A stretch of 64,000 bases of DNA. Origin: Naegleria gruberi (taxonomy: Eukaryota). Positions 3,901 through 64,000 of this stretch are shown here, piece after piece. Both the position numbers and the translations under genes were made by a program. Every line of letters begins with the position of its first letter. The first letter of the stretch is position 1. A model generated the notes under the pieces. That model was not told the origin of the DNA, searched no databases, and worked only from the letters and a program-made list of their open reading frames with translations. The stretch lies in NCBI GenBank assembly GCA_000004985.1, contig GG738904.1; one strand, written 5' to 3'.

Positions 3901-6105
3901 NNNNNNNNNNNNNNNNNNNNNNNNNNNNNNNNNNNNNNNNNNNNNNNNNNNNNNNNNNNNNNNNNNNNNNNNNNNNNNNNNNNNNNNNNNNNNNNNNNNN
4001 NNNNNNNNNNNNNNNNNNNNNNNNNNNNNNNNNNNNNNNNNNNNNNNNNNNNNNNNNNNNNNNNNNNNNNNNNNNNNNNNNNNNNNNNNNNNNNNNNNNN
4101 NNNNNNNNNNNNNNNNNNNNNNNNNNNNNNNNNNNNNNNNNNNNNNNNNNNNNNNNNNNNNNNNNNNNNNNNNNNNNNNNNNNNNNNNNNNNNNNNNNNN
4201 NNNNNNNNNNNNNNNNNNNNNNNNNNNNNNNNNNNNNNNNNNNNNNNNNNNNNNNNNNNNNNNNNNNNNNNNNNNNNNNNNNNNNNNNNNNNNNNNNNNN
4301 NNNNNNNNNNNNNNNNNNNNNNNNNNNNNNNNNNNNNNNNNNNNNNNNNNNNNNNNNNNNNNNNNNNNNNNNNNNNNNNNNNNNNNNNNNNNNNNNNNNN
4401 NNNNNNNNNNNNNNNNNNNNNNNNNNNNNNNNNNNNNNNNNNNNNNNNNNNNNNNNNNNNNNNNNNNNNNNNNNNNNNNNNNNNNNNNNNNNNNNNNNNN
4501 NNNNNNNNNNNNNNNNNNNNNNNNNNNNNNNNNNNNNNNNNNNNNNNNNNNNNNNNNNNNNNNNNNNNNNNNNNNNNNNNNNNNNNNNNNNNNNNNNNNN
4601 NNNNNNNNNNNNNNNNNNNNNNNNNNNNNNNNNNNNNNNNNNNNNNNNNNNNNNNNNNNNNNNNNNNNNNNNNNNNNNNNNNNNNNNNNNNNNNNNNNNN
4701 NNNNNNNNNNNNNNNNNNNNNNNNNNNNNNNNNNNNNNNNNNNNNNNNNNNNNNNNNNNNNNNNNNNNNNNNNNNNNNNNNNNNNNNNNNNNNNNNNNNN
4801 NNNNNNNNNNNNNNNNNNNNNNNNNNNNNNNNNNNNNNNNNNNNNNNNNNNNNNNNNNNNNNNNNNNNNNNNNNNNNNNNNNNNNNNNNNNNNNNNNNNN
4901 NNNNNNNNNNNNNNNNNNNNNNNNNNNNNNNNNNNNNNNNNNNNNNNNNNNNNNNNNNNNNNNNNNNNNNNNNNNNNNNNNNNNNNNNNNNNNNNNNNNN
5001 NNNNNNNNNNNNNNNNNNNNNNNNNNNNNNNNNNNNNNNNNNNNNNNNNNNNNNNNNNNNNNNNNNNNNNNNNNNNNNNNNNNNNNNNNNNNNNNNNNNN
5101 NNNNNNNNNNNNNNNNNNNNNNNNNNNNNNNNNNNNNNNNNNNNNNNNNNNNNNNNNNNNNNNNNNNNNNNNNNNNNNNNNNNNNNNNNNNNNNNNNNNN
5201 NNNNNNNNNNNNNNNNNNNNNNNNNNNNNNNNNNNNNNNNNNNNNNNNNNNNNNNNNNNNNNNNNNNNNNNNNNNNNNNNNNNNNNNNNNNNNNNNNNNN
5301 NNNNNNNNNNNNNNNNNNNNNNNNNNNNNNNNNNNNNNNNNNNNNNNNNNNNNNNNNNNNNNNNNNNNNNNNNNNNNNNNNNNNNNNNNNNNNNNNNNNN
5401 NNNNNNNNNNNNNNNNNNNNNNNNNNNNNNNNNNNNNNNNNNNNNNNNNNNNNNNNNNNNNNNNNNNNNNNNNNNNNNNNNNNNNNNNNNNNNNNNNNNN
5501 NNNNNNNNNNNNNNNNNNNNNNNNNNNNNNNNNNNNNNNNNNNNNNNNNNNNNNNNNNNNNNNNNNNNNNNNNNNNNNNNNNNNNNNNNNNNNNNNNNNN
5601 NNNNNNNNNNNNNNNNNNNNNNNNNNNNNNNNNNNNNNNNNNNNNNNNNNNNNNNNNNNNNNNNNNNNNNNNNNNNNNNNNNNNNNNNNNNNNNNNNNNN
5701 NNNNNNNNNNNNNNNNNNNNNNNNNNNNNNNNNNNNNNNNNNNNNNNNNNNNNNNNNNNNNNNNNNNNNNNNNNNNNNNNNNNNNNNNNNNNNNNNNNNN
5801 NNNNNNNNNNNNNNNNNNNNNNNNNNNNNNNNNNNNNNNNNNNNNNNNNNNNNNNNNNNNNNNNNNNNNNNNNNNNNNNNNNNNNNNNNNNNNNNNNNNN
5901 NNNNNNNNNNNNNNNNNNNNNNNNNNNNNNNNNNNNNNNNNNNNNNNNNNNNNNNNNNNNNNNNNNNNNNNNNNNNNNNNNNNNNNNNNNNNNNNNNNNN
6001 NNNNNNNNNNNNNNNNNNNNNNNNNNNNNNNNNNNNNNNNNNNNNNNNNNNNNNNNNNNNNNNNNNNNNNNNNNNNNNNNNNNNNNNNNNNNNNNNNNNN
6101 NNNNN
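985..6105. other. Assembly gap (N run, about 5.1 kb)
   Basis: Contiguous n characters. All six-frame ORFs that span it are artifacts. Confidence 0.99.
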
Positions 6106-7513: not shown

Positions 7514-10500
7514 NNNNNNNNNNNNNNNNNNNNNNNNNNNNNNNNNNNNNNNNNNNNNNNNNNNNNNNNNNNNNNNNNNNNNNNNNNNNNNNNNNNNNNN
7601 NNNNNNNNNNNNNNNNNNNNNNNNNNNNNNNNNNNNNNNNNNNNNNNNNNNNNNNNNNNNNNNNNNNNNNNNNNNNNNNNNNNNNNNNNNNNNNNNNNNN
7701 NNNNNNNNNNNNNNNNNNNNNNNNNNNNNNNNNNNNNNNNNNNNNNNNNNNNNNNNNNNNNNNNNNNNNNNNNNNNNNNNNNNNNNNNNNNNNNNNNNNN
7801 NNNNNNNNNNNNNNNNNNNNNNNNNNNNNNNNNNNNNNNNNNNNNNNNNNNNNNNNNNNNNNNNNNNNNNNNNNNNNNNNNNNNNNNNNNNNNNNNNNNN
7901 NNNNNNNNNNNNNNNNNNNNNNNNNNNNNNNNNNNNNNNNNNNNNNNNNNNNNNNNNNNNNNNNNNNNNNNNNNNNNNNNNNNNNNNNNNNNNNNNNNNN
8001 NNNNNNNNNNNNNNNNNNNNNNNNNNNNNNNNNNNNNNNNNNNNNNNNNNNNNNNNNNNNNNNNNNNNNNNNNNNNNNNNNNNNNNNNNNNNNNNNNNNN
8101 NNNNNNNNNNNNNNNNNNNNNNNNNNNNNNNNNNNNNNNNNNNNNNNNNNNNNNNNNNNNNNNNNNNNNNNNNNNNNNNNNNNNNNNNNNNNNNNNNNNN
8201 NNNNNNNNNNNNNNNNNNNNNNNNNNNNNNNNNNNNNNNNNNNNNNNNNNNNNNNNNNNNNNNNNNNNNNNNNNNNNNNNNNNNNNNNNNNNNNNNNNNN
8301 NNNNNNNNNNNNNNNNNNNNNNNNNNNNNNNNNNNNNNNNNNNNNNNNNNNNNNNNNNNNNNNNNNNNNNNNNNNNNNNNNNNNNNNNNNNNNNNNNNNN
8401 NNNNNNNNNNNNNNNNNNNNNNNNNNNNNNNNNNNNNNNNNNNNNNNNNNNNNNNNNNNNNNNNNNNNNNNNNNNNNNNNNNNNNNNNNNNNNNNNNNNN
8501 NNNNNNNNNNNNNNNNNNNNNNNNNNNNNNNNNNNNNNNNNNNNNNNNNNNNNNNNNNNNNNNNNNNNNNNNNNNNNNNNNNNNNNNNNNNNNNNNNNNN
8601 NNNNNNNNNNNNNNNNNNNNNNNNNNNNNNNNNNNNNNNNNNNNNNNNNNNNNNNNNNNNNNNNNNNNNNNNNNNNNNNNNNNNNNNNNNNNNNNNNNNN
8701 NNNNNNNNNNNNNNNNNNNNNNNNNNNNNNNNNNNNNNNNNNNNNNNNNNNNNNNNNNNNNNNNNNNNNNNNNNNNNNNNNNNNNNNNNNNNNNNNNNNN
8801 NNNNNNNNNNNNNNNNNNNNNNNNNNNNNNNNNNNNNNNNNNNNNNNNNNNNNNNNNNNNNNNNNNNNNNNNNNNNNNNNNNNNNNNNNNNNNNNNNNNN
8901 NNNNNNNNNNNNNNNNNNNNNNNNNNNNNNNNNNNNNNNNNNNNNNNNNNNNNNNNNNNNNNNNNNNNNNNNNNNNNNNNNNNNNNNNNNNNNNNNNNNN
9001 NNNNNNNNNNNNNNNNNNNNNNNNNNNNNNNNNNNNNNNNNNNNNNNNNNNNNNNNNNNNNNNNNNNNNNNNNNNNNNNNNNNNNNNNNNNNNNNNNNNN
9101 NNNNNNNNNNNNNNNNNNNNNNNNNNNNNNNNNNNNNNNNNNNNNNNNNNNNNNNNNNNNNNNNNNNNNNNNNNNNNNNNNNNNNNNNNNNNNNNNNNNN
9201 NNNNNNNNNNNNNNNNNNNNNNNNNNNNNNNNNNNNNNNNNNNNNNNNNNNNNNNNNNNNNNNNNNNNNNNNNNNNNNNNNNNNNNNNNNNNNNNNNNNN
9301 NNNNNNNNNNNNNNNNNNNNNNNNNNNNNNNNNNNNNNNNNNNNNNNNNNNNNNNNNNNNNNNNNNNNNNNNNNNNNNNNNNNNNNNNNNNNNNNNNNNN
9401 NNNNNNNNNNNNNNNNNNNNNNNNNNNNNNNNNNNNNNNNNNNNNNNNNNNNNNNNNNNNNNNNNNNNNNNNNNNNNNNNNNNNNNNNNNNNNNNNNNNN
9501 NNNNNNNNNNNNNNNNNNNNNNNNNNNNNNNNNNNNNNNNNNNNNNNNNNNNNNNNNNNNNNNNNNNNNNNNNNNNNNNNNNNNNNNNNNNNNNNNNNNN
9601 NNNNNNNNNNNNNNNNNNNNNNNNNNNNNNNNNNNNNNNNNNNNNNNNNNNNNNNNNNNNNNNNNNNNNNNNNNNNNNNNNNNNNNNNNNNNNNNNNNNN
9701 NNNNNNNNNNNNNNNNNNNNNNNNNNNNNNNNNNNNNNNNNNNNNNNNNNNNNNNNNNNNNNNNNNNNNNNNNNNNNNNNNNNNNNNNNNNNNNNNNNNN
9801 NNNNNNNNNNNNNNNNNNNNNNNNNNNNNNNNNNNNNNNNNNNNNNNNNNNNNNNNNNNNNNNNNNNNNNNNNNNNNNNNNNNNNNNNNNNNNNNNNNNN
9901 NNNNNNNNNNNNNNNNNNNNNNNNNNNNNNNNNNNNNNNNNNNNNNNNNNNNNNNNNNNNNNNNNNNNNNNNNNNNNNNNNNNNNNNNNNNNNNNNNNNN
10001 NNNNNNNNNNNNNNNNNNNNNNNNNNNNNNNNNNNNNNNNNNNNNNNNNNNNNNNNNNNNNNNNNNNNNNNNNNNNNNNNNNNNNNNNNNNNNNNNNNNN
10101 NNNNNNNNNNNNNNNNNNNNNNNNNNNNNNNNNNNNNNNNNNNNNNNNNNNNNNNNNNNNNNNNNNNNNNNNNNNNNNNNNNNNNNNNNNNNNNNNNNNN
10201 NNNNNNNNNNNNNNNNNNNNNNNNNNNNNNNNNNNNNNNNNNNNNNNNNNNNNNNNNNNNNNNNNNNNNNNNNNNNNNNNNNNNNNNNNNNNNNNNNNNN
10301 NNNNNNNNNNNNNNNNNNNNNNNNNNNNNNNNNNNNNNNNNNNNNNNNNNNNNNNNNNNNNNNNNNNNNNNNNNNNNNNNNNNNNNNNNNNNNNNNNNNN
10401 NNNNNNNNNNNNNNNNNNNNNNNNNNNNNNNNNNNNNNNNNNNNNNNNNNNNNNNNNNNNNNNNNNNNNNNNNNNNNNNNNNNNNNNNNNNNNNNNNNNN

Positions 10501-13500
10501 NNNNNNNNNNNNNNNNNNNNNNNNNNNNNNNNNNNNNNNNNNNNNNNNNNNNNNNNNNNNNNNNNNNNNNNNNNNNNNNNNNNNNNNNNNNNNNNNNNNN
10601 NNNNNNNNNNNNNNNNNNNNNNNNNNNNNNNNNNNNNNNNNNNNNNNNNNNNNNNNNNNNNNNNNNNNNNNNNNNNNNNNNNNNNNNNNNNNNNNNNNNN
10701 NNNNNNNNNNNNNNNNNNNNNNNNNNNNNNNNNNNNNNNNNNNNNNNNNNNNNNNNNNNNNNNNNNNNNNNNNNNNNNNNNNNNNNNNNNNNNNNNNNNN
10801 NNNNNNNNNNNNNNNNNNNNNNNNNNNNNNNNNNNNNNNNNNNNNNNNNNNNNNNNNNNNNNNNNNNNNNNNNNNNNNNNNNNNNNNNNNNNNNNNNNNN
10901 NNNNNNNNNNNNNNNNNNNNNNNNNNNNNNNNNNNNNNNNNNNNNNNNNNNNNNNNNNNNNNNNNNNNNNNNNNNNNNNNNNNNNNNNNNNNNNNNNNNN
11001 NNNNNNNNNNNNNNNNNNNNNNNNNNNNNNNNNNNNNNNNNNNNNNNNNNNNNNNNNNNNNNNNNNNNNNNNNNNNNNNNNNNNNNNNNNNNNNNNNNNN
11101 NNNNNNNNNNNNNNNNNNNNNNNNNNNNNNNNNNNNNNNNNNNNNNNNNNNNNNNNNNNNNNNNNNNNNNNNNNNNNNNNNNNNNNNNNNNNNNNNNNNN
11201 NNNNNNNNNNNNNNNNNNNNNNNNNNNNNNNNNNNNNNNNNNNNNNNNNNNNNNNNNNNNNNNNNNNNNNNNNNNNNNNNNNNNNNNNNNNNNNNNNNNN
11301 NNNNNNNNNNNNNNNNNNNNNNNNNNNNNNNNNNNNNNNNNNNNNNNNNNNNNNNNNNNNNNNNNNNNNNNNNNNNNNNNNNNNNNNNNNNNNNNNNNNN
11401 NNNNNNNNNNNNNNNNNNNNNNNNNNNNNNNNNNNNNNNNNNNNNNNNNNNNNNNNNNNNNNNNNNNNNNNNNNNNNNNNNNNNNNNNNNNNNNNNNNNN
11501 NNNNNNNNNNNNNNNNNNNNNNNNNNNNNNNNNNNNNNNNNNNNNNNNNNNNNNNNNNNNNNNNNNNNNNNNNNNNNNNNNNNNNNNNNNNNNNNNNNNN
11601 NNNNNNNNNNNNNNNNNNNNNNNNNNNNNNNNNNNNNNNNNNNNNNNNNNNNNNNNNNNNNNNNNNNNNNNNNNNNNNNNNNNNNNNNNNNNNNNNNNNN
11701 NNNNNNNNNNNNNNNNNNNNNNNNNNNNNNNNNNNNNNNNNNNNNNNNNNNNNNNNNNNNNNNNNNNNNNNNNNNNNNNNNNNNNNNNNNNNNNNNNNNN
11801 NNNNNNNNNNNNNNNNNNNNNNNNNNNNNNNNNNNNNNNNNNNNNNNNNNNNNNNNNNNNNNNNNNNNNNNNNNNNNNNNNNNNNNNNNNNNNNNNNNNN
11901 NNNNNNNNNNNNNNNNNNNNNNNNNNNNNNNNNNNNNNNNNNNNNNNNNNNNNNNNNNNNNNNNNNNNNNNNNNNNNNNNNNNNNNNNNNNNNNNNNNNN
12001 NNNNNNNNNNNNNNNNNNNNNNNNNNNNNNNNNNNNNNNNNNNNNNNNNNNNNNNNNNNNNNNNNNNNNNNNNNNNNNNNNNNNNNNNNNNNNNNNNNNN
12101 NNNNNNNNNNNNNNNNNNNNNNNNNNNNNNNNNNNNNNNNNNNNNNNNNNNNNNNNNNNNNNNNNNNNNNNNNNNNNNNNNNNNNNNNNNNNNNNNNNNN
12201 NNNNNNNNNNNNNNNNNNNNNNNNNNNNNNNNNNNNNNNNNNNNNNNNNNNNNNNNNNNNNNNNNNNNNNNNNNNNNNNNNNNNNNNNNNNNNNNNNNNN
12301 NNNNNNNNNNNNNNNNNNNNNNNNNNNNNNNNNNNNNNNNNNNNNNNNNNNNNNNNNNNNNNNNNNNNNNNNNNNNNNNNNNNNNNNNNNNNNNNNNNNN
12401 NNNNNNNNNNNNNNNNNNNNNNNNNNNNNNNNNNNNNNNNNNNNNNNNNNNNNNNNNNNNNNNNNNNNNNNNNNNNNNNNNNNNNNNNNNNNNNNNNNNN
12501 NNNNNNNNNNNNNNNNNNNNNNNNNNNNNNNNNNNNNNNNNNNNNNNNNNNNNNNNNNNNNNNNNNNNNNNNNNNNNNNNNNNNNNNNNNNNNNNNNNNN
12601 NNNNNNNNNNNNNNNNNNNNNNNNNNNNNNNNNNNNNNNNNNNNNNNNNNNNNNNNNNNNNNNNNNNNNNNNNNNNNNNNNNNNNNNNNNNNNNNNNNNN
12701 NNNNNNNNNNNNNNNNNNNNNNNNNNNNNNNNNNNNNNNNNNNNNNNNNNNNNNNNNNNNNNNNNNNNNNNNNNNNNNNNNNNNNNNNNNNNNNNNNNNN
12801 NNNNNNNNNNNNNNNNNNNNNNNNNNNNNNNNNNNNNNNNNNNNNNNNNNNNNNNNNNNNNNNNNNNNNNNNNNNNNNNNNNNNNNNNNNNNNNNNNNNN
12901 NNNNNNNNNNNNNNNNNNNNNNNNNNNNNNNNNNNNNNNNNNNNNNNNNNNNNNNNNNNNNNNNNNNNNNNNNNNNNNNNNNNNNNNNNNNNNNNNNNNN
13001 NNNNNNNNNNNNNNNNNNNNNNNNNNNNNNNNNNNNNNNNNNNNNNNNNNNNNNNNNNNNNNNNNNNNNNNNNNNNNNNNNNNNNNNNNNNNNNNNNNNN
13101 NNNNNNNNNNNNNNNNNNNNNNNNNNNNNNNNNNNNNNNNNNNNNNNNNNNNNNNNNNNNNNNNNNNNNNNNNNNNNNNNNNNNNNNNNNNNNNNNNNNN
13201 NNNNNNNNNNNNNNNNNNNNNNNNNNNNNNNNNNNNNNNNNNNNNNNNNNNNNNNNNNNNNNNNNNNNNNNNNNNNNNNNNNNNNNNNNNNNNNNNNNNN
13301 NNNNNNNNNNNNNNNNNNNNNNNNNNNNNNNNNNNNNNNNNNNNNNNNNNNNNNNNNNNNNNNNNNNNNNNNNNNNNNNNNNNNNNNNNNNNNNNNNNNN
13401 NNNNNNNNNNNNNNNNNNNNNNNNNNNNNNNNNNNNNNNNNNNNNNNNNNNNNNNNNNNNNNNNNNNNNNNNNNNNNNNNNNNNNNNNNNNNNNNNNNNN

Positions 13501-56928: not shown

Positions 56929-57579
56929 TTTCGAATACAATTTTGTAAATAGTAAAAATAAATAAAATAATTTAATTCATAATATTGTTGATGATACAGT
57001 GGAGGTTGAAAATGCAATTACAAGTTGTGGTTGTTTGAAAATTTATGGAGCTTGTCAGAGGGTAAATACTGACATGTACAGTTGACAAGATCTTGAGTAA
57101 TAATGAAGATCTTTTGGAGTTTAGAATCAATTTTGTTAACACTTACAATTGGATGTTTCTCATCCTCTTCGATCTGAGCTTTACAGCAAGTAATATTTCC
57201 AAAAATAGCTATTGTTTGCAATGTTAAAAAAATTAATGAGACACATTTTCGATATTTTGTTTAAAATTACCTCAAATGCAAGGTGGAAAAACAAAATTAT
57301 TTCTTTTAAGGTCTAAGTGTTTCATAATATGTCTGTTGCCAACAACCTGCCAATCCACTACAAATTAAATCTGCACAGCTTTTGAAAATAACATTTTGCG
57401 TCTAAACCACACGCCCCAACAAAAAAAATGCAACAAACAAGAATGCTTCACTCATCACCCAACCATTCCCACAACACCAACAACAAAAAAATCACAATAT
57501 TAATTCATCATGAGCAAAGGTATAAACAAATCATCAGTAAGTAACCATATAAACAAGTACTCTAATAATTATAAAAGAA

Positions 57580-58389
57580 CACTAAGAAGAAAACTAACAC
57601 CAAGACAACTGTGAAGAAAACCAACACCAAGAACACTGTGAAGAATACCAATACCAAGAACACTGTGAAGAACACTGTGAAGAACACCAATAAGAAGAAT
57701 ACCATCAAAAAGAAGAATCCAAAGCGTAAGTGTTATTGTTATTTATTAATTTACTAACATTGTTAATAGTTGCTCGGGAAGTTGTCAATTACACAACTGT
57801 GAATGCCAAATGGTTCCTTTATGCTCCAACCACCACCGAAAGTGGTTTCAAAGCTACATTTATTCCAGTCAGTGGTCCATTTAACAGAGTTGAAGAAATG
57901 AAACGAGTTGCTTGTTTGCAAATGTTTTGTGAAAGTTGTGCTATAACTTTGGGTTTTTATTTGGATCCAAGTATGTTCAAAAGATTTCAAACTGGTATTC
58001 GTATTGCATCATTGAAACCTGAATGGTTCTCTCATTATTTCGAGTCATGTGGTGGAAAAATGAAAAACAGAGTTCAATATATTCGTTACAATGGTCACAG
58101 TTTGAGTATTACTTGTCCTTCTTATGAATTCTATGGTTTGGAAAATATGCCACCTTTGAATTGTAATGGTAGTTATGCAAGCACGGTTTTTCAAGTTTCC
58201 CAACCAATATTGATGAACCATCCATTTCAACCACACTTTAAATGGATTGAACAGTGGAAATTTGTTTACAGATTGTATTTCTCTAAACTCGTATTTATAT
58301 GCAATCCAGTAACGAATATGGTTTCAGTAGATTTGGAATTTACAAAGGATGTACAAAGTATGGATTGTACTGGTTTCCAAATTGTTTAA
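57580..58389 (+). CDS. Hypothetical protein. An upstream exon encodes K/T/N-rich 7-aa repeats (DNA 21-bp tandem repeats, 57580-57724), then intron 57725-57771, then main exon 57772-58389. The start codon was not resolved.
   Basis: Open frame KNTKKKTNTKTTVKKTNTKNTVKNTNTKNTVKNTVKNTNKKNTIKKKNPK, then GTAAGT...TACTAAC..AATAG and LAREVVNYTTVNAKWFLYAPTTTESGF.... The 21-mer is ACCAAGAACACTGTGAAGAAT, 4-5 times. Confidence 0.4.
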
Positions 58390-58399
58390 TAAATAATTT

Positions 58400-58879
58400 T
58401 TATTCATTAAAATCAATTAATGACAAGTCACATTCTTCTCGTTTCAATTTCAAGAATAGCACATTATTGAACTTGAATGGATTTTCTGCTAAATTGTCTG
58501 TTGTATCAACATGAACAAATAAAGACTTGAAGGCTCTATTTTCTGCATACAAAATTGAATTTAAAGAGTAAAGTTTTAATCTTCGGGTTGCAGAGGGTAA
58601 ATCAAATACTTCACGTAGAATTTTCAAATATTTAGTATCTGTAAATTCTACAACACCTTCATCCTCATCAATTCCATAATCAATCAAAGTTCTTTTTAAT
58701 TCATCCATTAGAGCTCTTGGATTAACAATAGATGGTTTCATAACACAATTCGGAATATACAGATGATCATAAAATTGATCATCTGTAATTTCTTCTCCTT
58801 CACAACAAATCATAACTACGGGCAATTCGTAAATGGTGTTATAAATAGGAATTATATTGGCTTCAGCAACACGAGGCAT
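58400..58879 (-). CDS. Hypothetical protein (about 159 aa from MPRVAEAN...), divergent from the H3-variant gene
   Basis: The ORF track extends it to 59005, but that extension overlaps the conserved 80-bp element and the H3-variant start. The internal Met at 58877-58879 is more plausible. Confidence 0.4.
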   Translation of the reverse strand: MPRVAEANIIPIYNTIYELPVVMICCEGEEITDDQFYDHLYIPNCVMKPSIVNPRALMDELKRTLIDYGIDEDEGVVEFTDTKYLKILREVFDLPSATRRLKLYSLNSILYAENRAFKSLFVHVDTTDNLAENPFKFNNVLFLKLKREECDLSLIDFNE

Positions 58880-58887
58880 TTTGTCAG

Positions 58888-58966
58888 TTAAAATATTTGA
58901 TCGTCGATTCCCCGTGCCAGTGTTGTGGTAGTAAAAGTGATTCCGTAATCGACTCTCAAAAAAACT
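58888..58966. repeat. Conserved element of about 80 bp with an internal hairpin (copy 1). It fills the 92-bp divergent promoter between gene 58400-58879 (-) and the H3-variant gene (+).
   Basis: TTAAAATATTTGATCGTCGATTCCCCGTGCCAGTGTTGTGGTAGTAAAAGTGATTCCGTAATCGACTCTCAAAAA. Copy 2 lies at 62542-62617. Confidence 0.8.
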
Positions 58967-58971
58967 GAAAA

Positions 58972-59532
58972 ATGACTCAAACTTCTTCATCAACAGCAGA
59001 AACATCTACAGAAACCTCGGAAGTTCCAAACAACACATCAACCAAAACACCATCAACAACACCATCAAAAACACTATCAAAAACATCAACCAAAACACCA
59101 TCAAAAACATCAACCAAAACACCATCAAAAACACCAAGAAAAACACCAAGAAAAACACCAAAAAAAACACCAGCAAAGAAATCTGCAAAAAAACCATTCA
59201 CAGGAGGAATTAAAAAGCCACACAGATATAGACCAGGTACTGTAGCTTTAAGAGAAATCCGAAAGTATCAAAAAAGCACTGAATTATTGATAAAAAAAAA
59301 ACCTTTTTGTAGGTTGGTGAGAGAAGTTGCTCAAGATTACAAATCTGATGTTAGATTTCAAGCGAATTCACTCCTTGCACTTCAAGAAGCAGCTGAGGCA
59401 TTTATTATTGATATTTTTGAGGATACTAATCTTTGTGCCATTCACTCCAAAAGAGTTACTATTTTGCTCAAAGATATGCAACTTGCATTAAGAGTAAAAG
59501 GTGTTAATTATATTGGTTTATTAAATAAATAA
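58972..59532 (+). CDS. Histone H3 variant with a canonical histone fold and a long divergent T/S/P/K-rich N-terminal tail built from TPSKT repeats
   Basis: Histone fold: [97 protein letters not shown]. The tail: [45 protein letters not shown]. Confidence 0.8.
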
Positions 59533-59565
59533 TATTAATCATCATCATTTAATATCTTTAAAAAA

Positions 59566-62545
59566 ATGTCTTGTACTTTAGAAGATATTTTTCAAGACAC
59601 ACAATTCAAAAAGTTCAACGATAAAGGAAAACCGTATTGTGAAGGAGTTGTACATTTAAAACAAGAAGACTTATACAAATTTTTAGGAATAAAAGAAGTT
59701 AAAAAGAAAAGGATATTAGAAACCTCCGAATTAAATCGATGTAAAAATGNNNNNNNNNNNNNNNNNNNNNNNNNNNNNNNNNNNNNNNNNNNNNNNNNNN
59801 NNNNNNNNNNNNNNNNNNNNNNNNNNNNNNNNNNNNNNNNNNNNNNNNNNNNNNNNNNNNNNNNNNNNNNNNNNNNNNNNNNNNNNNNNNNNNNNNNNNN
59901 NNNNNNNNNNNNNNNNNNNNNNNNNNNNNNNNNNNNNNNNNNNNNNNNNNNNNNNNNNNNNNNNNNNNNNNNNNNNNNNNNNNNNNNNNNNNNNNNNNNN
60001 NNNNNNNNNNNNNNNNNNNNNNNNNNNNNNNNNNNNNNNNNNNNNNNNNNNNNNNNNNNNNNNNNNNNNNNNNNNNNNNNNNNNNNNNNNNNNNNNNNNN
60101 NNNNNNNNNNNNNNNNNNNNNNNNNNNNNNNNNNNNNNNNNNNNNNNNNNNNNNNNNNNNNNNNNNNNNNNNNNNNNNNNNNNNNNNNNNNNNNNNNNNN
60201 NNNNNNNNNNNNNNNNNNNNNNNNNNNNNNNNNNNNNNNNNNNNNNNNNNNNNNNNNNNNNNNNNNNNNNNNNNNNNNNNNNNNNNNNNNNNNNNNNNNN
60301 NNNNNNNNNNNNNNNNNNNNNNNNNNNNNNNNNNNNNNNNNNNNNNNNNNNNNNNNNNNNNNNNNNNNNNNNNNNNNNNNNNNNNNNNNNNNNNNNNNNN
60401 NNNNNNNNNNNNNNNNNNNNNNNNNNNNNNNNNNNNNNNNNNNNNNNNNNNNNNNNNNNNNNNNNNNNNNNNNNNNNNNNNNNNNNNNNNNNNNNNNNNN
60501 NNNNNNNNNNNNNNNNNNNNNNNNNNNNNNNNNNNNNNNNNNNNNNNNNNNNNNNNNNNNNNNNNNNNNNNNNNNNNNNNNNNNNNNNNNNNNNNNNNNN
60601 NNNNNNNNNNNNNNNNNNNNNNNNNNNNNNNNNNNNNNNNNNNNNNNNNNNNNNNNNNNNNNNNNNNNNNNNNNNNNNNNNNNNNNNNNNNNNNNNNNNN
60701 NNNNNNNNNNNNNNNNNNNNNNNNNNNNNNNNNNNNNNNNNNNNNNNNNNNNNNNNNNNNNNNNNNNNNNNNNNNNNNNNNNNNNNNNNNNNNNNNNNNN
60801 NNNNNNNNNNNNNNNNNNNNNNNNNNNNNNNNNNNNNNNNNNNNNNNNNNNNNNNNNNNNNNNNNNNNNNNNNNNNNNNNNNNNNNNNNNNNNNNNNNNN
60901 NNNNNNNNNNNNNNNNNNNTTACATACTGTTCACACAAGAAAACAGAATGATAAAGTATGTGTAGATAAATTACCAGAAAAAGTAATGATTAAATTGTCA
61001 ATGGATGGTAGAGAATTTGGAAATTTACGAACAGTTGTAGTTACTTTGAATATTTTAAATTTACATTTATTCGGAACACAAGAAAGAGACTGTGTTTTCC
61101 CAATTCTAATGTATATAGGTGAAGAGAAAGATATTATTAATTATATAACTGAAATTGAAAAAGAAGTTATTGAACTTTCTACCAAACATATTACTATCAA
61201 AGAAAACGAGCATGATGCTACACTATCACTTGAAAATACAACCCAAACAATTCCATTAGAATTCTATTGGGTGAGTGATTTAAAATCACTTGAATATTGT
61301 TCATTATTGAAAGAACATGCTATGTTTTGTCCTTTCTGCAACATTAAGAAACAAAATTCATTGTCTGGGATTTGTTCTGAAAATAGTAGAAATTTACAAC
61401 ACAAAATGGGTGTTAAATCATCCAATATTTTCATATGCATTTTGCATATGGATGAACGAATTACTGAATATATTTTGAAAATGACCTTAAAAACTTCGGA
61501 ACTTGAAAAGCAAATGAAAACCAATATTTGTTCATTAGAAGGTTTTGCTGATTTTAATTTTCATTCATCAAGTGTTTTAGTGAAAGATACAATCGAAGAA
61601 GAAAATGCTCTCACAGTTAAGGAATATTCATTTATGTTATCTGGCGGGCATTGTAATAAGCTTTTTGGATCTTTTGATAAAGTTTTTGGATTTTTGAAAG
61701 ATTCAAACTCAAATATGTATAATATTTGGAAAAAATACAAATCAATTAGACAGTGGTTGTATTATACAAATGAAGATTTGGAAAAGAAATCATTAAAGGA
61801 TTGGGAAAATTTTGATTCTGAGTTAAATGAATGGAGATTGCTTTTTGTTCTACAAAAAGCTGATAGTGGAAGAATAGGAGATTACATTCATATTGCCACT
61901 GCACATCTTTATGACTTGCTTTCAACTTATGGAAGTCTGGTTCCTCTTTCAAATCAAGGTGTAGAAAGTTCTCATCAATTAGATTGTTTGATTATGGAAA
62001 GAGGGACAAGTAAGGGTAAAATGTCTATTGGTACCAAAAAAGCTCAAGCTGGCTCCTCAAAACCAAACGTGGAAACTGTATCCAAACCTGCTTCCCATAC
62101 TCTTGAGTCTAGTGATCTTGATAATGAGCAAGAACATAAGGAATTTAATTATGAATCATTTATTAAGAAGACAGAATCTTGTGACTGGAATGATTTATTC
62201 CAAGTTTGTCAAATCATGCTGAAGAAACTTAGAAAGTTGTATTTATCTTTTACTTGTGAAGAAGTACTATTTGTCCGGTTAGAAAGAAGGACTGGTAAGG
62301 TAATAAGAAAAGATTGGACAAGAGACATTTTAACTATGTCTCCCAACTTTACTCTGCCTATCCGAAAACCAACCAATGTTCTCATTCAAAAACCAGATAA
62401 CATTAACACTGAAGTGATATCTCCACAGCTTGCTCCATCCCAAGATGTTCCTAAAAGAACAGTTGAACTCAAACAATCCCAGGAATATGGATTGGTTGTG
62501 AATGGTGATGATGATGGGTTGATGAATGATGATGTCTTCTATTAA
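59566..62545 (+). CDS. Large protein interrupted by a 1.17-kb N gap (59750-60919). It may be related to Mutator-superfamily transposases, judged from one C-terminal motif.
   Basis: The open frame before and after the gap shares frame continuity only by assumption. The post-gap 540 aa include CPFCNIKK...ILHMDERI and ...IATAHLYDLLSTYGSLVPLSNQGVESSHQLDCLIME (compare the Mutator/IS256 E-motif SNxxxESxN/H). The call is weak. Confidence 0.3.
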
Positions 62546-62617
62546 AAATATTTGATCGTCGATTCCCCGTGCCAGTGTTGTGGTAGTCAAAGCGATTCCG
62601 GAATCGACTTTCAAAAA
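62542..62617. repeat. Conserved 80-bp element, copy 2, with a perfect 9-bp stem GTCGATTCC (62558-62566) / GGAATCGAC (62600-62608). It starts right at the stop codon of gene 59566-62545.
   Basis: TTAAAAATATTTGATCGTCGATTCCCCGTGCCAGTGTTGTGGTAGTCAAAGCGATTCCGGAATCGACTTTCAAAAA, about 90% identical to 58888-58966. Confidence 0.8.
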
Positions 62618-63038
62618 TTCAATAAAATGTGCCATCAAATAAAATTTTATCAAAGGCCTTTATTGTTAGAAATAATAATTATTATTTAAATATTAAACAT
62701 TGTTACTTCATATAATCAAATTAAAAGCATGTTAAATGTTTAATATATAACAAATAATAACTGTAATAATCGGAATTGTAAAATTCTGGAAGATTTTAAA
62801 CAGTAGTGGTTTTAATTGGTTCAAAAAGTGGCAAAAAAAAATTTGGCGCAAAGAGCGGTCGACAATTTGTCGAGTCTTGCTGAATGGTTATTTTCAACTC
62901 TAGATTTGTAGTGTGAAAAGCAAACATTCAATTTCAAAATCTCTTTTACCCGAATGGCCTTTTGCGGTTAGAGCTCGTTATCACGCACTTGCTCAAGAAT
63001 CATTTTGAAAAAAAAACTTTACGAAACTTGCCTAAACC

Positions 63039-64000
63039 ATGAACGAAACAGAATGCAAGGATTGCGTCTCGGATAACCACAGCAAAGTTTCCAGCGCAAG
63101 CACATCCAACCTTTCCAACATTACCACAACCTCTGTAGGCTCTCTAGAATTATTCGAAACCATGATTGTCCAACCGATTGGCCATTCGATTCTTCAACTT
63201 TCGTCCAAACACAAAATTCTCATCATTTCCATTAAATGGTTTGGTTGTCCAATGTGCCAAAAATTAATCGACAATCTCGATGAATACCTCCCTTCTTTAC
63301 TAATGCTCAACATTATTCCTGTCATTTGCCATCAAGAAGACGAAACCAAATTTGGAAAGCACATTTCACATACGAAACTGTTTCATTGTAAAATTTCAAC
63401 ACAAGCCAAGAGGATGCTGTTGATTGACAAGGCAAGTGTTGTAAAGCACATGAAAGCCATGCCAACGATTTTGAAATTACTTGTCAAGGAAAAGAGAAAA
63501 TTATTTTTGCCTTCGCTGTCAGAAATCAAAGATATGGAGCTGGTGTCAACTTTTGGGATGCATATTGTGAGGAATGGACAAGTGGAGACTAGTTATTTTT
63601 ATAAGAATTTGTTGGATAGACCTGATTTGGGTCAGTTTGTGTTTAATCTTTCGAATAGAAAAGAAGAAACGATTCAGGAAGAAGGAGATGATAAGGAAAT
63701 GGTAATTTCGTATAAGAAGAGTGAAATTGAAGAAGTGGAGCAGTTTTTACCTAATCTTATCAAGCTATACCCAGATTTGAAGAAAGTTTTTTCATCAATT
63801 CGGCAAAAACGAGTTCAATTACCTTCTAGTGAACTTTCGAATAATTTACAAATAGGTCAGCCAACCTCCTCCACACCAACCTCACCTACCCTTCAAGTTC
63901 CACAGCCAGCTAACGGCGGTAGACCTTCCACATCATCAGTTGGCTCATCCTCTTCCTCAATTTCCACATCTTACATTAGCATGTCAAATGTCCTCGAAAA
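63039..64000 (+). CDS. Thioredoxin-fold protein with a GCPMC (CxxC) motif, peroxiredoxin-like/AhpC-TSA-like. It is 3'-partial at the window edge.
   Basis: ORF from ATG 63039, open to the end of the window: ...HKILIISIKWFGCPMCQKLIDNLDEYLPSLLMLNIIPVICHQ.... It is not in the supplied ORF track because it has no stop in the window. Confidence 0.5.
   Translation, partial: MNETECKDCVSDNHSKVSSASTSNLSNITTTSVGSLELFETMIVQPIGHSILQLSSKHKILIISIKWFGCPMCQKLIDNLDEYLPSLLMLNIIPVICHQEDETKFGKHISHTKLFHCKISTQAKRMLLIDKASVVKHMKAMPTILKLLVKEKRKLFLPSLSEIKDMELVSTFGMHIVRNGQVETSYFYKNLLDRPDLGQFVFNLSNRKEETIQEEGDDKEMVISYKKSEIEEVEQFLPNLIKLYPDLKKVFSSIRQKRVQLPSSELSNNLQIGQPTSSTPTSPTLQVPQPANGGRPSTSSVGSSSSSISTSYISMSNVLE

What the first reader, a model, noticed from the sequence alone, without database searches (positions are those of the whole stretch)
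58888..62617. An 80-bp hairpin-containing direct repeat brackets the histone H3-variant gene and a large Mutator-like gene
The 80-bp copies at 58888-58966 and 62542-62617 are about 90% identical and relatively GC-rich, with an internal 9-bp inverted repeat (GTCGATTCC/GGAATCGAC). Copy 1 fills the whole 92-bp divergent promoter upstream of the H3-variant ATG. Copy 2 begins at the stop codon of the downstream large gene and is also followed by an ATG about 12 nt later.

The repeat could be a shared cis-regulatory or insulator element, a small structured-RNA gene, or the ends of a duplicated or mobilised segment. The enclosed large ORF carries a Mutator-superfamily-like SNQGVESSH motif. The enclosed H3 has an atypical TPSKT-repeat tail and may be a CenH3-like or other specialised H3.
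Basis: partly seen in the sequence, partly recalled or inferred. Interest (0 to 1): 0.5.

Follow-up and report, generated by a model that had tools for sequence, protein, structure and literature searches.

The report
Paired palindromes inside a histone-carrying transposon
The two 80-bp repeats are real, but they are not the ends of anything: they are conserved palindromic control sites inside a 5.5-kb RAG1/Transib-type DNA transposon of Naegleria that, unusually, carries its own histone H3 variant gene.

Summary
The window is Naegleria gruberi. The repeat is confirmed: 85 nt, 89% identical, with only two copies in the window. Each copy is a palindrome made of two inverted copies of a 14-nt box, AATCGACNNTCAAA.

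Comparison with N. lovaniensis, Willaertia magna and metagenome contigs changes the interpretation. Four genes form one mobile element, window 57356-62913: orf219, a small minus-strand gene (M), the H3 variant and the large ORF. Five N. lovaniensis copies share exact boundaries, 99.8-99.98% identity and unrelated flanks.

The element ends in CAC...GTG inverted repeats. A second box lies 10 nt further in at the left end than at the right, an RSS/Transib-like asymmetry. The large ORF is a CMCT-clade (RAG1/Transib/EnSpm-type) transposase, not Mutator-like. The H3 is not CenH3.

R1 is the symmetric divergent promoter/leader of M and H3v. R2 sits at the transposase stop codon. Both palindromes hold these positions in three element lineages. 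Their arms co-vary between lineages while their loops drift, and the box occurs nowhere else in the sequence examined.

Best reading: element-specific protein-binding operator or road-block sites, comparable to the TNPA-binding repeats of En/Spm. This function is inferred, not shown. A transposon-borne H3 variant appears to be undescribed.

The parts
57356..57367 (+). Left terminus of the element, CACTACAAATTA. The first 10 nt are the perfect inverted repeat of the right terminus.
   Evidence: This is the only exact match in the window to the cross-species terminus consensus CACWACAAWTTA. The same 12-mer ends the N. lovaniensis and W. magna elements. It forms a 10/10 inverted match with 62904-62913.
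57382..57392 (+). Left second (A-rich) box, TTGAAAATAAC. It starts at offset 27 from the terminus.
   Evidence: An 11-nt exact inverted match to 62887-62897. Only 1 of 2000 shuffles gave a shared word this long. The left-minus-right offset is 10 nt, as in L004 and in N. lovaniensis L007.
57510..58389 (+). orf219, accessory gene 1. It has three exons read by eye (57510-57536, 57578-57725, 57770-58389). Exon 2 encodes K/T/N-rich repeats. Function unknown.
   Evidence: A homologue lies immediately upstream of the transposase, or of the M-H3v insert, in every related locus. There are no Pfam or PDB matches. Introns were read.
58400..58879 (-). M, accessory gene 2. It encodes 159 aa (pI 4.6) and is transcribed divergently from the H3 variant. 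Function unknown.
   Evidence: Homologues sit at the same position in L004, L006 and L007. There are no Pfam or PDB matches. The AlphaFold2 model is unusable.
58888..58966 (.). R1, repeat copy 1. It is a palindrome with arms at 58892-58911 and 58945-64. Its boxes are AATCGACGATCAAA (minus strand, 58896-58909) and AATCGACTCTCAAA (plus strand, 58947-58960). It fills the divergent M/H3v intergenic region.
   Evidence: The positional equivalents in L004, L006 and L007 are shown.
58972..59532 (+). H3v, a histone H3 variant identical to XP_002671547.1. It has a TPSKT-repeat N-terminal tail and a near-canonical histone fold.
   Evidence: Orthologues inside the element are present in L004, L006 and L007.
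59566..62545 (+). Transposase gene of CMCT-clade type (RAG1/Transib/EnSpm-like). It is interrupted by an N-run at 59751-60919. The start at 59566 is inferred.
   Evidence: Conserved residues are D, D, C-x2-C, C-x2-H, H-x4-H and E. A 53-sequence family profile hits RAG1 and RAG1L with E = 5e-9 to 1e-6.
62542..62617 (.). R2, repeat copy 2. It is a palindrome with arms at 62547-62566 and 62600-62619. Its boxes lie at 62551-62564 (minus strand) and 62602-62615 (plus strand). It begins at the transposase stop codon.
   Evidence: The positional equivalents in L004, L006 and L007 are shown.
62887..62897 (-). Right second box, TTGAAAATAAC on the minus strand. It starts at offset 17 from the terminus.
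62904..62913 (-). Right terminus, ...ATTTGTAGTG (CACTACAAAT on the minus strand).
   Evidence: L004 ends in the near-identical CACTACAAACC.

Best explanation
The two 80-bp copies (R1 and R2) are internal cis-elements of a roughly 5.5-kb cut-and-paste DNA transposon, window 57356-62913.

**The element.** It encodes a RAG1/Transib/EnSpm-type (CMCT-clade) transposase, a histone H3 variant and two proteins of unknown function (orf219 and M).

**The repeats.** Each R is a palindrome made of two inverted copies of a box of about 14 nt. The box has a G+C-rich core, TCGAC, followed by three variable bases and an A-rich tail. That gives four boxes per element.

**R1.** In R1 the two boxes face outward, each 1-16 nt upstream of the start codon of M or H3v. 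R1 is therefore the symmetric bidirectional promoter/leader of that gene pair. Because the transposase ATG follows the H3v stop by only 10-33 nt, R1 probably drives the transposase too.

**R2.** R2 places the same box pair on or just after the transposase stop codon, 120-850 nt inside the right end of the element.

**Proposed mechanism.** I propose that the boxes are binding sites for one sequence-specific factor, most likely an element-encoded one. M is the first candidate, because M and the R palindromes always occur together. At R1 the factor would act as an operator over the transcription start sites. At R2 it would act as a road-block, terminator or insulator that closes the H3v-transposase transcription unit and blocks read-in and read-out. 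This resembles TNPA acting on the repeated motifs of maize En/Spm.

**Why N. gruberi looks different.** The near-identity of the whole 80 bp in N. gruberi, loops included, is best explained by recent gene conversion between R1 and R2.

**Shown:** the anatomy, mobility, superfamily, positional conservation, co-variation of the arms and element-specificity of the box.

**Inferred:** protein binding, the identity of the binding factor, and the promoter and road-block roles.
For: **Organism.** H3v is identical to N. gruberi XP_002671547.1.

**Mobility.**
- N. lovaniensis loci L007 and L008 share exactly 5017 bp at 99.98% identity, with unrelated flanking genes.
- L009 and L010 are further copies at over 99.7% identity, and L006 is a diverged copy at 74-80%.
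- All copies end at CACAACAATTTA ... TAAATTGTTGTG.
- The same terminus, CACWACAAWTTA, occurs at window 57356, at both ends of an 8-kb W. magna element, and at the left end in L002 and L005.
- L004 ends in CACTACAAACC at both ends.
- A second box lies exactly 10 nt further from the left end than from the right end in N. gruberi, L004 and N. lovaniensis L007. At most 3 of 2000 shuffles matched each case.
- No synteny is detectable on either side of the block between species.

**Transposase.**
- D, D, C-x2-C and H-x4-H are invariant or nearly invariant in 53 family members.
- The family profile hits only RAG1 and RAG1L among solved structures, E = 5e-9 to 1e-6, over the Y-H-x4-H ... G-x-E block.
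- Distant members match Pfam RAG1, DUF1280 and Transposase_21.
- These motifs define the clade according to PMC12730594.

**The palindromes.**
- In L004, L006 and L007 a palindrome again fills the M/H3v intergenic region. A second palindrome with the same arms sits at or just after the transposase stop.
- Arm sequences differ between lineages but match within each element. Across eight hairpins, 78% of cells are paired, against 34-49% when the pairing register is slid. Eight of 19 pairs show changes on both sides, and 0 of 500 shuffles reached the observed score.
- Between the two N. lovaniensis lineages the arms are fully conserved, while the loops are only about 35-50% identical.
- The box occurs only at the four arms: in the window, in L004, and in roughly 65 kb of N. 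lovaniensis sequence, with none in about 43 kb of host flank.
- Relatives that lack M and H3v (W. magna, L003, L005) also lack R-like palindromes.
- Arm mismatches are never of the G-U type. One core mismatch is conserved in all four N. lovaniensis hairpins (read). This favours selection on the box sequence rather than on RNA pairing.

**Precedent.** En/Spm TNPA binds repeated motifs that have a G+C-rich and an A+T-rich half. It regulates its own promoter, blocks RNA polymerase, and co-diversifies with its motif (PMC2613891).
Against: - No binding, transcript, transcription-start or 3'-end data were available. The function is inferred from anatomy and conservation only.
- M and orf219 have no recognisable DNA-binding domain, and the structural model of M is unusable.
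- R1 lies about 1.5 kb from the left end, so it is not subterminal. This differs from the classical TNPA motif clusters.
- Inverted-repeat co-variation fits an RNA or DNA hairpin just as well as it fits symmetric binding sites.
- I could not search the complete N. gruberi genome. 'Element-specific' therefore rests on about 51 kb of non-N window sequence and on the fetched loci.
- No target-site duplication was seen at any of six complete copies. This is atypical for the clade and leaves the integration chemistry unexplained.
- The N. gruberi copy contains an assembly gap or mask (59751-60919). Whether it is intact is unknown.
Confidence: 0.6

Rival explanations
1. The palindromes act as RNA or single-strand hairpins rather than as protein-binding boxes. 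R2 would be a 3'-UTR or terminator stem-loop for the transposase mRNA. The R1 right arm in the 5' leader could pair with the R2 left arm, forming a 5'-3' panhandle on an H3v-transposase transcript.
For: Copy 2 folds well (z = -4.3). L004 has perfect stems of 20-22 bp. The arms co-vary so that pairing is preserved. R2 sits directly at the stop codon.
Against: - A structural role gives no reason for R1 and R2 to share arm sequence within each element, yet they always do.
- A mismatch in the core is conserved in all four N. lovaniensis hairpins, and no mismatch is of the G-U type.
- In R1 the transcription starts of two divergent genes must lie between or within the arms. Neither mRNA would then contain the whole hairpin.
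- There is no Rfam match.
Confidence: 0.2
2. R1 and R2 are recombination or transposition sites: the ends of a nested mobile unit (H3v plus transposase), or internal signals at which the RAG1-like enzyme excises or inverts that cassette.
For: The outer arms form a 20-nt, 85% complementary inverted pair flanking the 3.7-kb cassette (pair I9). The enclosed enzyme is RAG1-like. The pair keeps its position in three lineages.
Against: - All five N. lovaniensis copies and the diverged copy share the CAC...GTG boundaries. None ends at R.
- The arms bear no resemblance to the element termini or to their second box.
- M lies outside the bracket but always co-occurs with it.
Confidence: 0.07
3. The two copies are a functionless leftover of a local duplication or gene conversion.
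For: In N. gruberi the loops are also 31/33 identical, which indicates a recent copying event.
Against: The palindrome pairs sit at the same two positions in three deeply diverged lineages whose proteins are 26-58% identical. The arms are conserved and the loops are not.
Confidence: 0.05
4. R is a dispersed miniature inverted-repeat element, or a common host promoter motif, and two copies happen to lie near each other.
For: The homology between the copies ends close to the ends of the 20-nt inverted arms, as it would for a MITE.
Against: - There are only two copies in the window.
- The core 23-mer has no match in the metagenome or viral collections.
- The box is absent from all host flanks examined.
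- Homologous palindromes occupy the same positions inside the element in other species.
- No target-site duplications are visible.
Confidence: 0.04
5. R encodes a small structured RNA.
For: It is relatively G+C-rich and has a stem closing a 33-nt loop.
Against: There is no Rfam or tRNA match. Loop sequence and length are not conserved between lineages: loops are 21-49 nt and unrelated. Copy 1 overlaps two 5' leaders.
Confidence: 0.04

Closest known systems
Transib transposons and RAG1 / V(D)J recombination signal sequences
   Same: - The transposase profile matches only RAG1 and RAG1L among solved structures. The match lies in the C-terminal H-x4-H ... E block, the part best conserved between RAG1 and Transib (PMC1131882).
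- The termini begin with CAC.
- Each end has a second, A-rich box after a spacer. The spacer differs by one helical turn (10 nt) between the two ends. This parallels RSS12/RSS23 and the Transib families that have 12- and 23-type ends.
   Different: - Spacers are 9-27 nt rather than 12 and 23 nt.
- The heptamer is CACTACA or CACAACA rather than CACAATG or CACAGTG.
- No 5-bp target-site duplication is detectable.
- Only the C-terminal part aligns to RAG1.
- No RAG2-like gene is present.
- The element carries three further genes, including a histone.
En/Spm (CACTA) elements with TNPD transposase, TNPA DNA-binding protein and repeated TNPA-binding motifs
   Same: - CACTA-type termini (N. gruberi and L004 start CACTAC).
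- The C(2)C and H(4)H transposase signature.
- Element-encoded accessory proteins.
- A short repeated motif with a G+C-rich half and an A+T-rich half, arranged in inverted pairs, overlapping the promoter and diverging between element lineages (PMC2613891).
   Different: - There are only four boxes, in two palindromes. One palindrome is internal, 1.5 kb from the left end, rather than in clusters at both ends.
- The accessory proteins are unrelated to TNPA, and binding is untested.
- No 3-bp target-site duplication is seen.
- No Pfam Transposase_21 match for the Naegleria proteins themselves. Only one distant family member matched, at E = 0.008.
Fungal DNA transposons that carry a chromatin-modifying gene (TET/JBP dioxygenase in EnSpm, Plavaka, ESTA and KDZ lineages)
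   Same: These are DNA transposons, several of them in the same CMCT clade, that stably carry a gene acting on chromatin or epigenetic marks alongside the transposase (PMC12730594).
   Different: Here the cargo is a core histone H3 variant, not an enzyme. I found no report of a transposon-encoded core histone in the searchable library.
Divergent histone gene pairs with a shared bidirectional promoter
   Same: H3v is transcribed divergently from a small partner gene across a very short (71-92 nt), symmetric intergenic region. That histone gene pairs are commonly arranged this way is general knowledge.
   Different: The partner M is not a recognisable histone. The same promoter palindrome is repeated at the 3' end of the next gene.

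Membership tests
CMCT clade of DNA transposons (EnSpm/CACTA, Mirage, Chapaev, Transib; includes RAG1) | [quoted passage not shown] | tested here: met
   In the 53-member alignment, D432, D521, C538, C541, H719 and H724 (P0003 numbering) are invariant or at least 90% conserved. The E lies 20 residues after the second H. In N. gruberi the segment reads DYIHIATAH...SNQGVESSH. The RNase H-like fold itself could not be confirmed because the model had pLDDT 35.
CMCT clade of DNA transposons | Termini 5'-CA...TG-3' (CAC...GTG) with terminal inverted repeats | tested here: met
   Perfect inverted repeats of 10-12 nt: CACTACAAAT (N. gruberi), CACTACAAACCA (L004), CACAACAATTTA (N. lovaniensis) and CACTACAATTTA (W. 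magna).
CMCT clade of DNA transposons | Target-site duplication of 2-5 bp | tested here: not met
   No consistent direct repeat flanks any of six complete copies (N. gruberi, L004, L006-L009, L001). Two N. lovaniensis copies have AT on both sides, which may be chance. No empty sites were available for comparison.
CMCT clade of DNA transposons | Mobility: several copies with identical ends in different genomic contexts | tested here: met
   Five N. lovaniensis copies on five contigs are 99.8-99.98% identical over their full length and have unrelated flanking genes. N. gruberi appears to have a single copy.
Transib / RAG1-like | Significant sequence similarity to the RAG1 core | tested here: met
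   The family profile matches zebrafish and mouse RAG1 and amphioxus RAG1L at E = 4.9e-9 to 1e-6, with no other solved protein family matched. Pfam RAG1 matches 2 of 53 members, best E = 5e-5. Only the C-terminal block is covered. A profile of the five closest sequences alone gave no hit.
Transib / RAG1-like | Bipartite ends (heptamer, spacer, nonamer) with 12/23-type asymmetry | tested here: met
   A second shared 11-mer lies at offsets 27 and 17 (N. gruberi), 34 and 24 (L004), and 30 and 20 (N. lovaniensis L007). The difference is 10 nt each time, and 0-3 of 2000 shuffles matched. The spacer lengths are not 12 and 23, so this is an analogue rather than the canonical form.
Transib / RAG1-like | 5-bp target-site duplication | tested here: not met
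   See the target-site duplication row above.
   No Pfam MULE or Mutator match in the N. gruberi protein or in 53 relatives. The best matches are RAG1, DUF1280 and Transposase_21. The inverted repeats are only 10-12 nt and no target-site duplication is present.
CenH3 / CENP-A | Divergent histone fold with a longer loop 1, and centromere localisation | tested here: not met
   H3v is 67% identical to H3.3 over 128 residues, with no gap in the histone fold. Naegleria CENP-A1, validated by immunostaining, is XP_002682707.1, a different gene (bioRxiv 10.64898/2026.08.26... not applicable; the source is 10.64898/2026.08.18.745565). Localisation of H3v cannot be tested here.
TNPA-type repeated binding motifs of CACTA elements | A short motif repeated in direct and inverted orientation near both ends and bound by an element-encoded protein | tested here: inconclusive
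   The repetition, inverted pairing, element-specificity and lineage-specific divergence are present. However, only one palindrome is subterminal, and protein binding cannot be tested with these tools.
Miniature inverted-repeat transposable element (MITE) | Many dispersed copies, each with inverted repeats and its own target-site duplication | tested here: not met
   Two copies only, both inside the element at positions conserved across species, and no target-site duplication. A whole-genome count was not possible.
Known structured RNA families (Rfam) or tRNA | Match to a covariance model, with conserved loops | tested here: not met
   No match even at E up to 10 over 57000-64000. No tRNA found. 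Loops are not conserved.

The most novel reading that the evidence does not exclude
The element is a RAG1/Transib-related transposon that brings its own histone H3 variant. The four TCGAC boxes would be the sites where an element-encoded factor nucleates or positions H3v-containing nucleosomes over the H3v-transposase cassette. The transposon would then build a private chromatin state that gates its own transposase, a histone-based counterpart of the way RAG activity is coupled to the H3 tail. A bolder variant is that R1 and R2 are internal signals at which the RAG1-like enzyme loops out or excises the cassette.
Probability: 0.1. Interest if true: 0.9.

Novelty: new variant of a known kind. 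Interest (0 to 1): 0.7.

Why it matters
**For the repeat.** It shows that a short, locus-specific palindrome pair can be a conserved regulatory component of a transposon. The pair co-evolves between lineages as a binding site does with its protein. This gives a concrete, testable operator and road-block model in an organism where almost nothing is known about cis-regulation.

**For the wider field.**
- The locus reveals a CMCT-clade, RAG1-like transposon lineage in Heterolobosea (Discoba). Both ends carry a second box offset by one helical turn between the ends. This bears on how old the 12/23-type asymmetry of RAG and Transib ends is.
- As far as I could find, it is the first DNA transposon that stably carries a core histone H3 variant. 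The gene is conserved and intact in three element lineages, and the element is recently active in N. lovaniensis.
- It would add histones to the short list of chromatin genes co-opted by mobile elements.
- It flags XP_002671547.1 as a transposon gene rather than a host H3 variant. That matters for surveys of histone variants and CenH3 in protists.

Tried and rejected
**Searches that gave nothing**
- Rfam (E up to 10) and tRNA scans over the repeat.
- Exact scans for the 23-nt core in the metagenome and viral contig collections.
- The N. gruberi genome is not in the contig index, so a whole-genome copy count was impossible.

**Searches that were unhelpful**
- The H3v homologue search was swamped by tandem H3 doublets and gave no orthologues.
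- Pfam on the N. gruberi proteins alone and a PDB profile built from the five closest transposase relatives found nothing. Only the deeper 53-sequence profile reached RAG1.
- AlphaFold2 on the transposase C-terminal part (five-sequence alignment) and on M (single sequence) gave pLDDT 35-36. I therefore ran no fold searches.

**Hypotheses tested and dropped**
- I looked for remnants of H3 or M after copy 2, which would indicate a decayed tandem duplication. None were found.
- I looked for inverted repeats directly flanking the orf219-transposase pair before the true termini were known. Only weak A+T-rich matches appeared, although two of them later proved to be the real end boxes.
- I looked for synteny on either side of the block between species and found none.
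- I looked for target-site duplications, including mixed flanks between copies, and found nothing consistent.
- I looked for R-like palindromes in the relatives that lack the histone and found none.
- TCGAC pentamer enrichment in the element is modest and adds little.

Full report
**1. The observation**

The window is Naegleria gruberi. The H3-like ORF at 58972-59532 is identical to XP_002671547.1 / EFC38803.1.

The direct repeat is real.
- Window 58890-58974 and 62545-62629 match without gaps over 85 nt at 89% identity.
- The shared 34-mer occurs exactly twice in the window, against none in 100 shuffles.
- A sensitive blastn finds no weaker copy elsewhere in the window.

Each copy is a palindrome. 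The 9-bp stem GTCGATTCC/GGAATCGAC is exact in copy 2 and has one mismatch in copy 1. The arms extend to 20 nt. Copy 2 folds at -21.9 kcal/mol with z = -4.3, and copy 1 at z = -2.15. The hairpins are 44-47% G+C in an element that is 31% G+C.

The positional claims also hold.
- Copy 1 (R1) fills the 92 nt between the ATG of a minus-strand ORF, which I call M (58400-58879), and the H3 ATG.
- Copy 2 (R2) begins at the stop codon of the large ORF.
- The ATG after R2 opens only a 20-codon ORF.
- A run of N (59751-60919) interrupts the large ORF.

**2. What the enclosed genes are**

*The H3 variant.* It has a near-canonical histone fold. It is 67% identical to human H3.3 over 128 residues, with no loop insertion, and carries a TPSKT-repeat tail. 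The Naegleria CENP-A that stains kinetochores is a different protein, XP_002682707.1. This is therefore not a CenH3.

*The large ORF.* It has no Pfam match of its own and very few close relatives.
- A profile search of 1.84 billion representative proteins finds 214 relatives.
- In an alignment of 53 of them, two Asp, a C-x2-C, a C-x2-H and an H-x4-H are invariant or nearly so.
- A profile built from that alignment matches, among all solved structures, only RAG1 and amphioxus RAG1L (E = 4.9e-9 to 1e-6). The aligned block is Y-H-x4-H ... G-x-E.
- Distant family members match Pfam RAG1, DUF1280, Transposase_21 and a C-terminal Ulp1 protease.

**3. The whole four-gene block is a transposon**

*Gene order.* In W. 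magna (L001, L002), in one metagenome contig (L003) and in a Logan contig (L005), a homologue of the window ORF 57730-58389 (orf219) lies immediately upstream of the transposase gene. In N. gruberi, in a second metagenome contig (L004) and in N. lovaniensis (L006), this pair is separated by M and the H3 variant, in the same order and orientation.

*Mobility.* N. lovaniensis holds further copies.
- L007 and L008 share exactly 5017 bp at 99.98% identity, between completely different flanking genes.
- L009 and L010 are two more copies.

*Termini.*
- All N. lovaniensis copies, and the diverged L006, end at CACAACAATTTA ... TAAATTGTTGTG.
- The same 12-mer consensus, CACWACAAWTTA, has its only exact match in the window at 57356.
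- It bounds an 8-kb element in W. magna, at L001 9177 and 17238.
- In N. gruberi the inverted partner is ...ATTTGTAGTG, ending at 62913.
- L004 ends in CACTACAAACC at both ends.

*Asymmetric second box.* A second shared 11-mer lies 10 nt further from the left terminus than from the right one.
- N. gruberi: offsets 27 and 17.
- L004: offsets 34 and 24.
- N. lovaniensis L007: offsets 30 and 20.
- In each case 0-3 of 2000 shuffles gave a shared word as long.

The combination of a CAC terminus and a spaced A-rich box offset by one helical turn is the layout described for RSS12/RSS23 and for some Transib families (PMC1131882).

*Context.* Outside the block there is no detectable synteny between species on either side.

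*One expected feature is missing.* I see no target-site duplication at any of six complete copies.

The N. gruberi element is thus 57356-62913. Its order is left end, orf219, M (minus strand), R1, H3v, transposase, R2, right end.

**4. What R1 and R2 are**

They are not the ends of the mobile unit. They are internal. The comparative data show that they are functional.

*Position is conserved.*
- In L004 the M/H3v intergenic region is a perfect 22-bp palindrome that runs from one start codon to the other: CCATTTTTTAGGGTGTCGAATG ... CATTCGACACCCTAAAAAATGG.
- A second L004 palindrome with the same arms, TTTTAGGGTGTCGATTTAA ... TTAAATCGACACCCTAAAA, lies 19 nt after the transposase stop.
- Both N. 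lovaniensis lineages have the same arrangement, built on a box TNGACGSWCAA. There the R2 left arm overlaps the stop codon.

*Sequence behaviour.*
- Each element carries four copies of a box of about 14 nt: a TCGAC core, three variable bases and an A-rich tail.
- The four boxes agree within an element and differ between lineages.
- I trimmed eight hairpins to their arms and aligned them. In that alignment 78% of cells pair, against 34-49% when the pairing register is slid. Eight of 19 pairs change on both sides, and no shuffle out of 500 reaches the observed score.
- Between the two N. lovaniensis lineages, which are 74-80% identical overall, the arms are fully conserved while the loops are about 35-50% identical.

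*Specificity.*
- The N. gruberi box AATCGACNNTCAAA occurs exactly four times in the window, at the four arms. Near-matches occur at the chance rate.
- The L004 and N. lovaniensis boxes likewise occur only at the arms, with none in about 43 kb of host flank.
- Relatives that lack M and H3v have no such palindromes.

*Why N. gruberi stands out.* N. gruberi is the only lineage in which the loops also match, at 31 of 33 positions. Recent gene conversion between R1 and R2 is the simplest explanation.

**5. How it most likely works**

In R1 each box faces outward and lies 1-16 nt upstream of a start codon. R1 must therefore contain the core promoters and leaders of M and H3v (shown by position; transcription itself is inferred).

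The transposase ATG follows the H3v stop by 33 nt in N. gruberi and by only a few to about 20 nt in L004 and L007. This leaves no room for a separate promoter. H3v and the transposase are probably one transcription unit that starts in R1 and ends at R2 (inferred).

The four boxes share a sequence, evolve together and are private to the element. The most economical mechanism is a single sequence-specific factor, probably element-encoded, binding all four. M is the first candidate because M and R always occur together.
- At R1 the factor would work as an operator.
- At R2 it would work as a road-block, terminator or insulator.

This is what TNPA does at the repeated motifs of En/Spm. Those motifs also have a G+C-rich half and an A+T-rich half and diverge together with their binding protein (PMC2613891).

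Two observations favour selection on the box over selection on an RNA stem.
- The hairpin mismatches are never of the G-U type.
- One core mismatch is conserved in all four N. lovaniensis hairpins.

The evidence is indirect, and a hairpin mechanism remains a serious rival. M and orf219 have no recognisable domains, and the structural models failed.

**6. Comparison with known systems, and novelty**

The element belongs with the CMCT clade on three criteria: the motif signature, the CAC...GTG termini and demonstrated mobility. Within that clade it looks most like Transib/RAG1, both in profile similarity and in its asymmetric bipartite ends. It fails the target-site-duplication criterion. Its spacers and heptamer are its own.

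I therefore treat it as a new variant within a known kind, not as a member of Transib or EnSpm proper.

Its cargo is unusual. DNA transposons carrying TET/JBP dioxygenases are known (PMC12730594). I found no report of a transposon that carries a core histone, nor of this family in Naegleria. Repbase itself could not be searched.

The R palindromes are a new arrangement of a familiar idea, namely transposon-specific repeated binding motifs.

**7. Verdict**

It is not the end of that segment, not Mutator-like, not next to a CenH3 and not an RNA gene.
- Confidence is high (about 0.9) that R1 and R2 are conserved internal palindromic box pairs of a CMCT-type transposon.
- Confidence is moderate (about 0.5) that they act through protein binding as promoter/operator and road-block.

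Noticed in passing
window 58972-59532; L004 1528-1914; L006 about 7564-7988; L007 5575-5997: A core histone H3 variant gene is stable cargo of a DNA transposon. It is intact and conserved (55-58% identity) in three element lineages, including recently active N. lovaniensis copies. XP_002671547.1, annotated simply as 'histone H3', is therefore a transposon gene.
   Followed up: partly
window 57356-57392 and 62887-62913; L004 159-204 and 6020-6064; L007 4103-4142 and 9090-9119: The element ends are bipartite: a CAC terminus plus a second 11-nt box. The second box lies exactly 10 nt further in at the left end than at the right in three lineages. This is a one-helical-turn asymmetry reminiscent of the 12/23 rule.
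   Followed up: yes
flanks of window 57356 and 62913; L001 9177 and 17238; L004 159 and 6064; L006-L009 ends: No target-site duplication is visible at any of six complete copies. Two N. lovaniensis copies have AT on both sides. This is unexpected for this transposon clade.
   Followed up: partly
window 62857-62875: A tight palindrome, GGTCGACAATTTGTCGAG, carries further TCGAC cores 40-55 nt inside the right end. It may be additional box-like sites.
   Followed up: no
window 62797-62808: A second, weaker candidate right terminus, TAAACAGTAGTG (11/14 match to the left end), lies 105 nt inside the chosen one.
   Followed up: no
window 57510-57770: orf219 has two short introns with GTAAGT donors. 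Its exon 2 (57578-57725) encodes K/T/N-rich repeats. At the DNA level these are about 61% similar to the TPSKT-repeat region of the H3 variant (59109-59179). Two proteins of the element thus share lysine/threonine-rich low-complexity tails.
   Followed up: no
window 59533-59565; L004 1915-1924; L007 about 5998-6000: The transposase ATG follows the H3 variant stop by only 33 nt in N. gruberi, 10 nt in L004 and a few nt in N. lovaniensis, leaving no room for a promoter. This suggests a bicistronic H3v-transposase transcript.
   Followed up: no
L001 9177-17238, especially 13214-13297: The W. magna relative is an 8-kb element without M or H3v but with other cargo. It has a cluster of TCACTGTGA / CACAGTG palindromes about 0.5 kb after the transposase gene. 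These resemble the RSS heptamer, and there were 9 matches against 3.7 expected by chance.
   Followed up: partly
L006 about 10960-10990; L007 about 9060-9090: A conserved small hairpin near the right end of the N. lovaniensis elements shows a compensatory change: CCTCCA..TGGAGG in L006 and CTTCCA..TGGAAG in L007. N. gruberi has a related AAATTCTGGAAG at 62780-62791.
   Followed up: no
L004 5252-5617: The metagenome element has an extra 121-codon ORF between R2 and its right end. The other lineages lack it. It could be a gene driven by the right-hand box of R2.
   Followed up: no
window 59751-60919; also roughly 2001-6000 and 8001-12000: Long runs of N (assembly gaps or masking) are present. 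One lies inside the transposase gene, and the reading frames on its two sides do not match. The integrity of the N. gruberi copy therefore cannot be judged.
   Followed up: no
window 62914-64000: The 1.1 kb to the right of the element has a coding-like G+C content (about 36%) but no ORF longer than 50 codons and no similarity to the regions downstream of the element in other species.
   Followed up: partly
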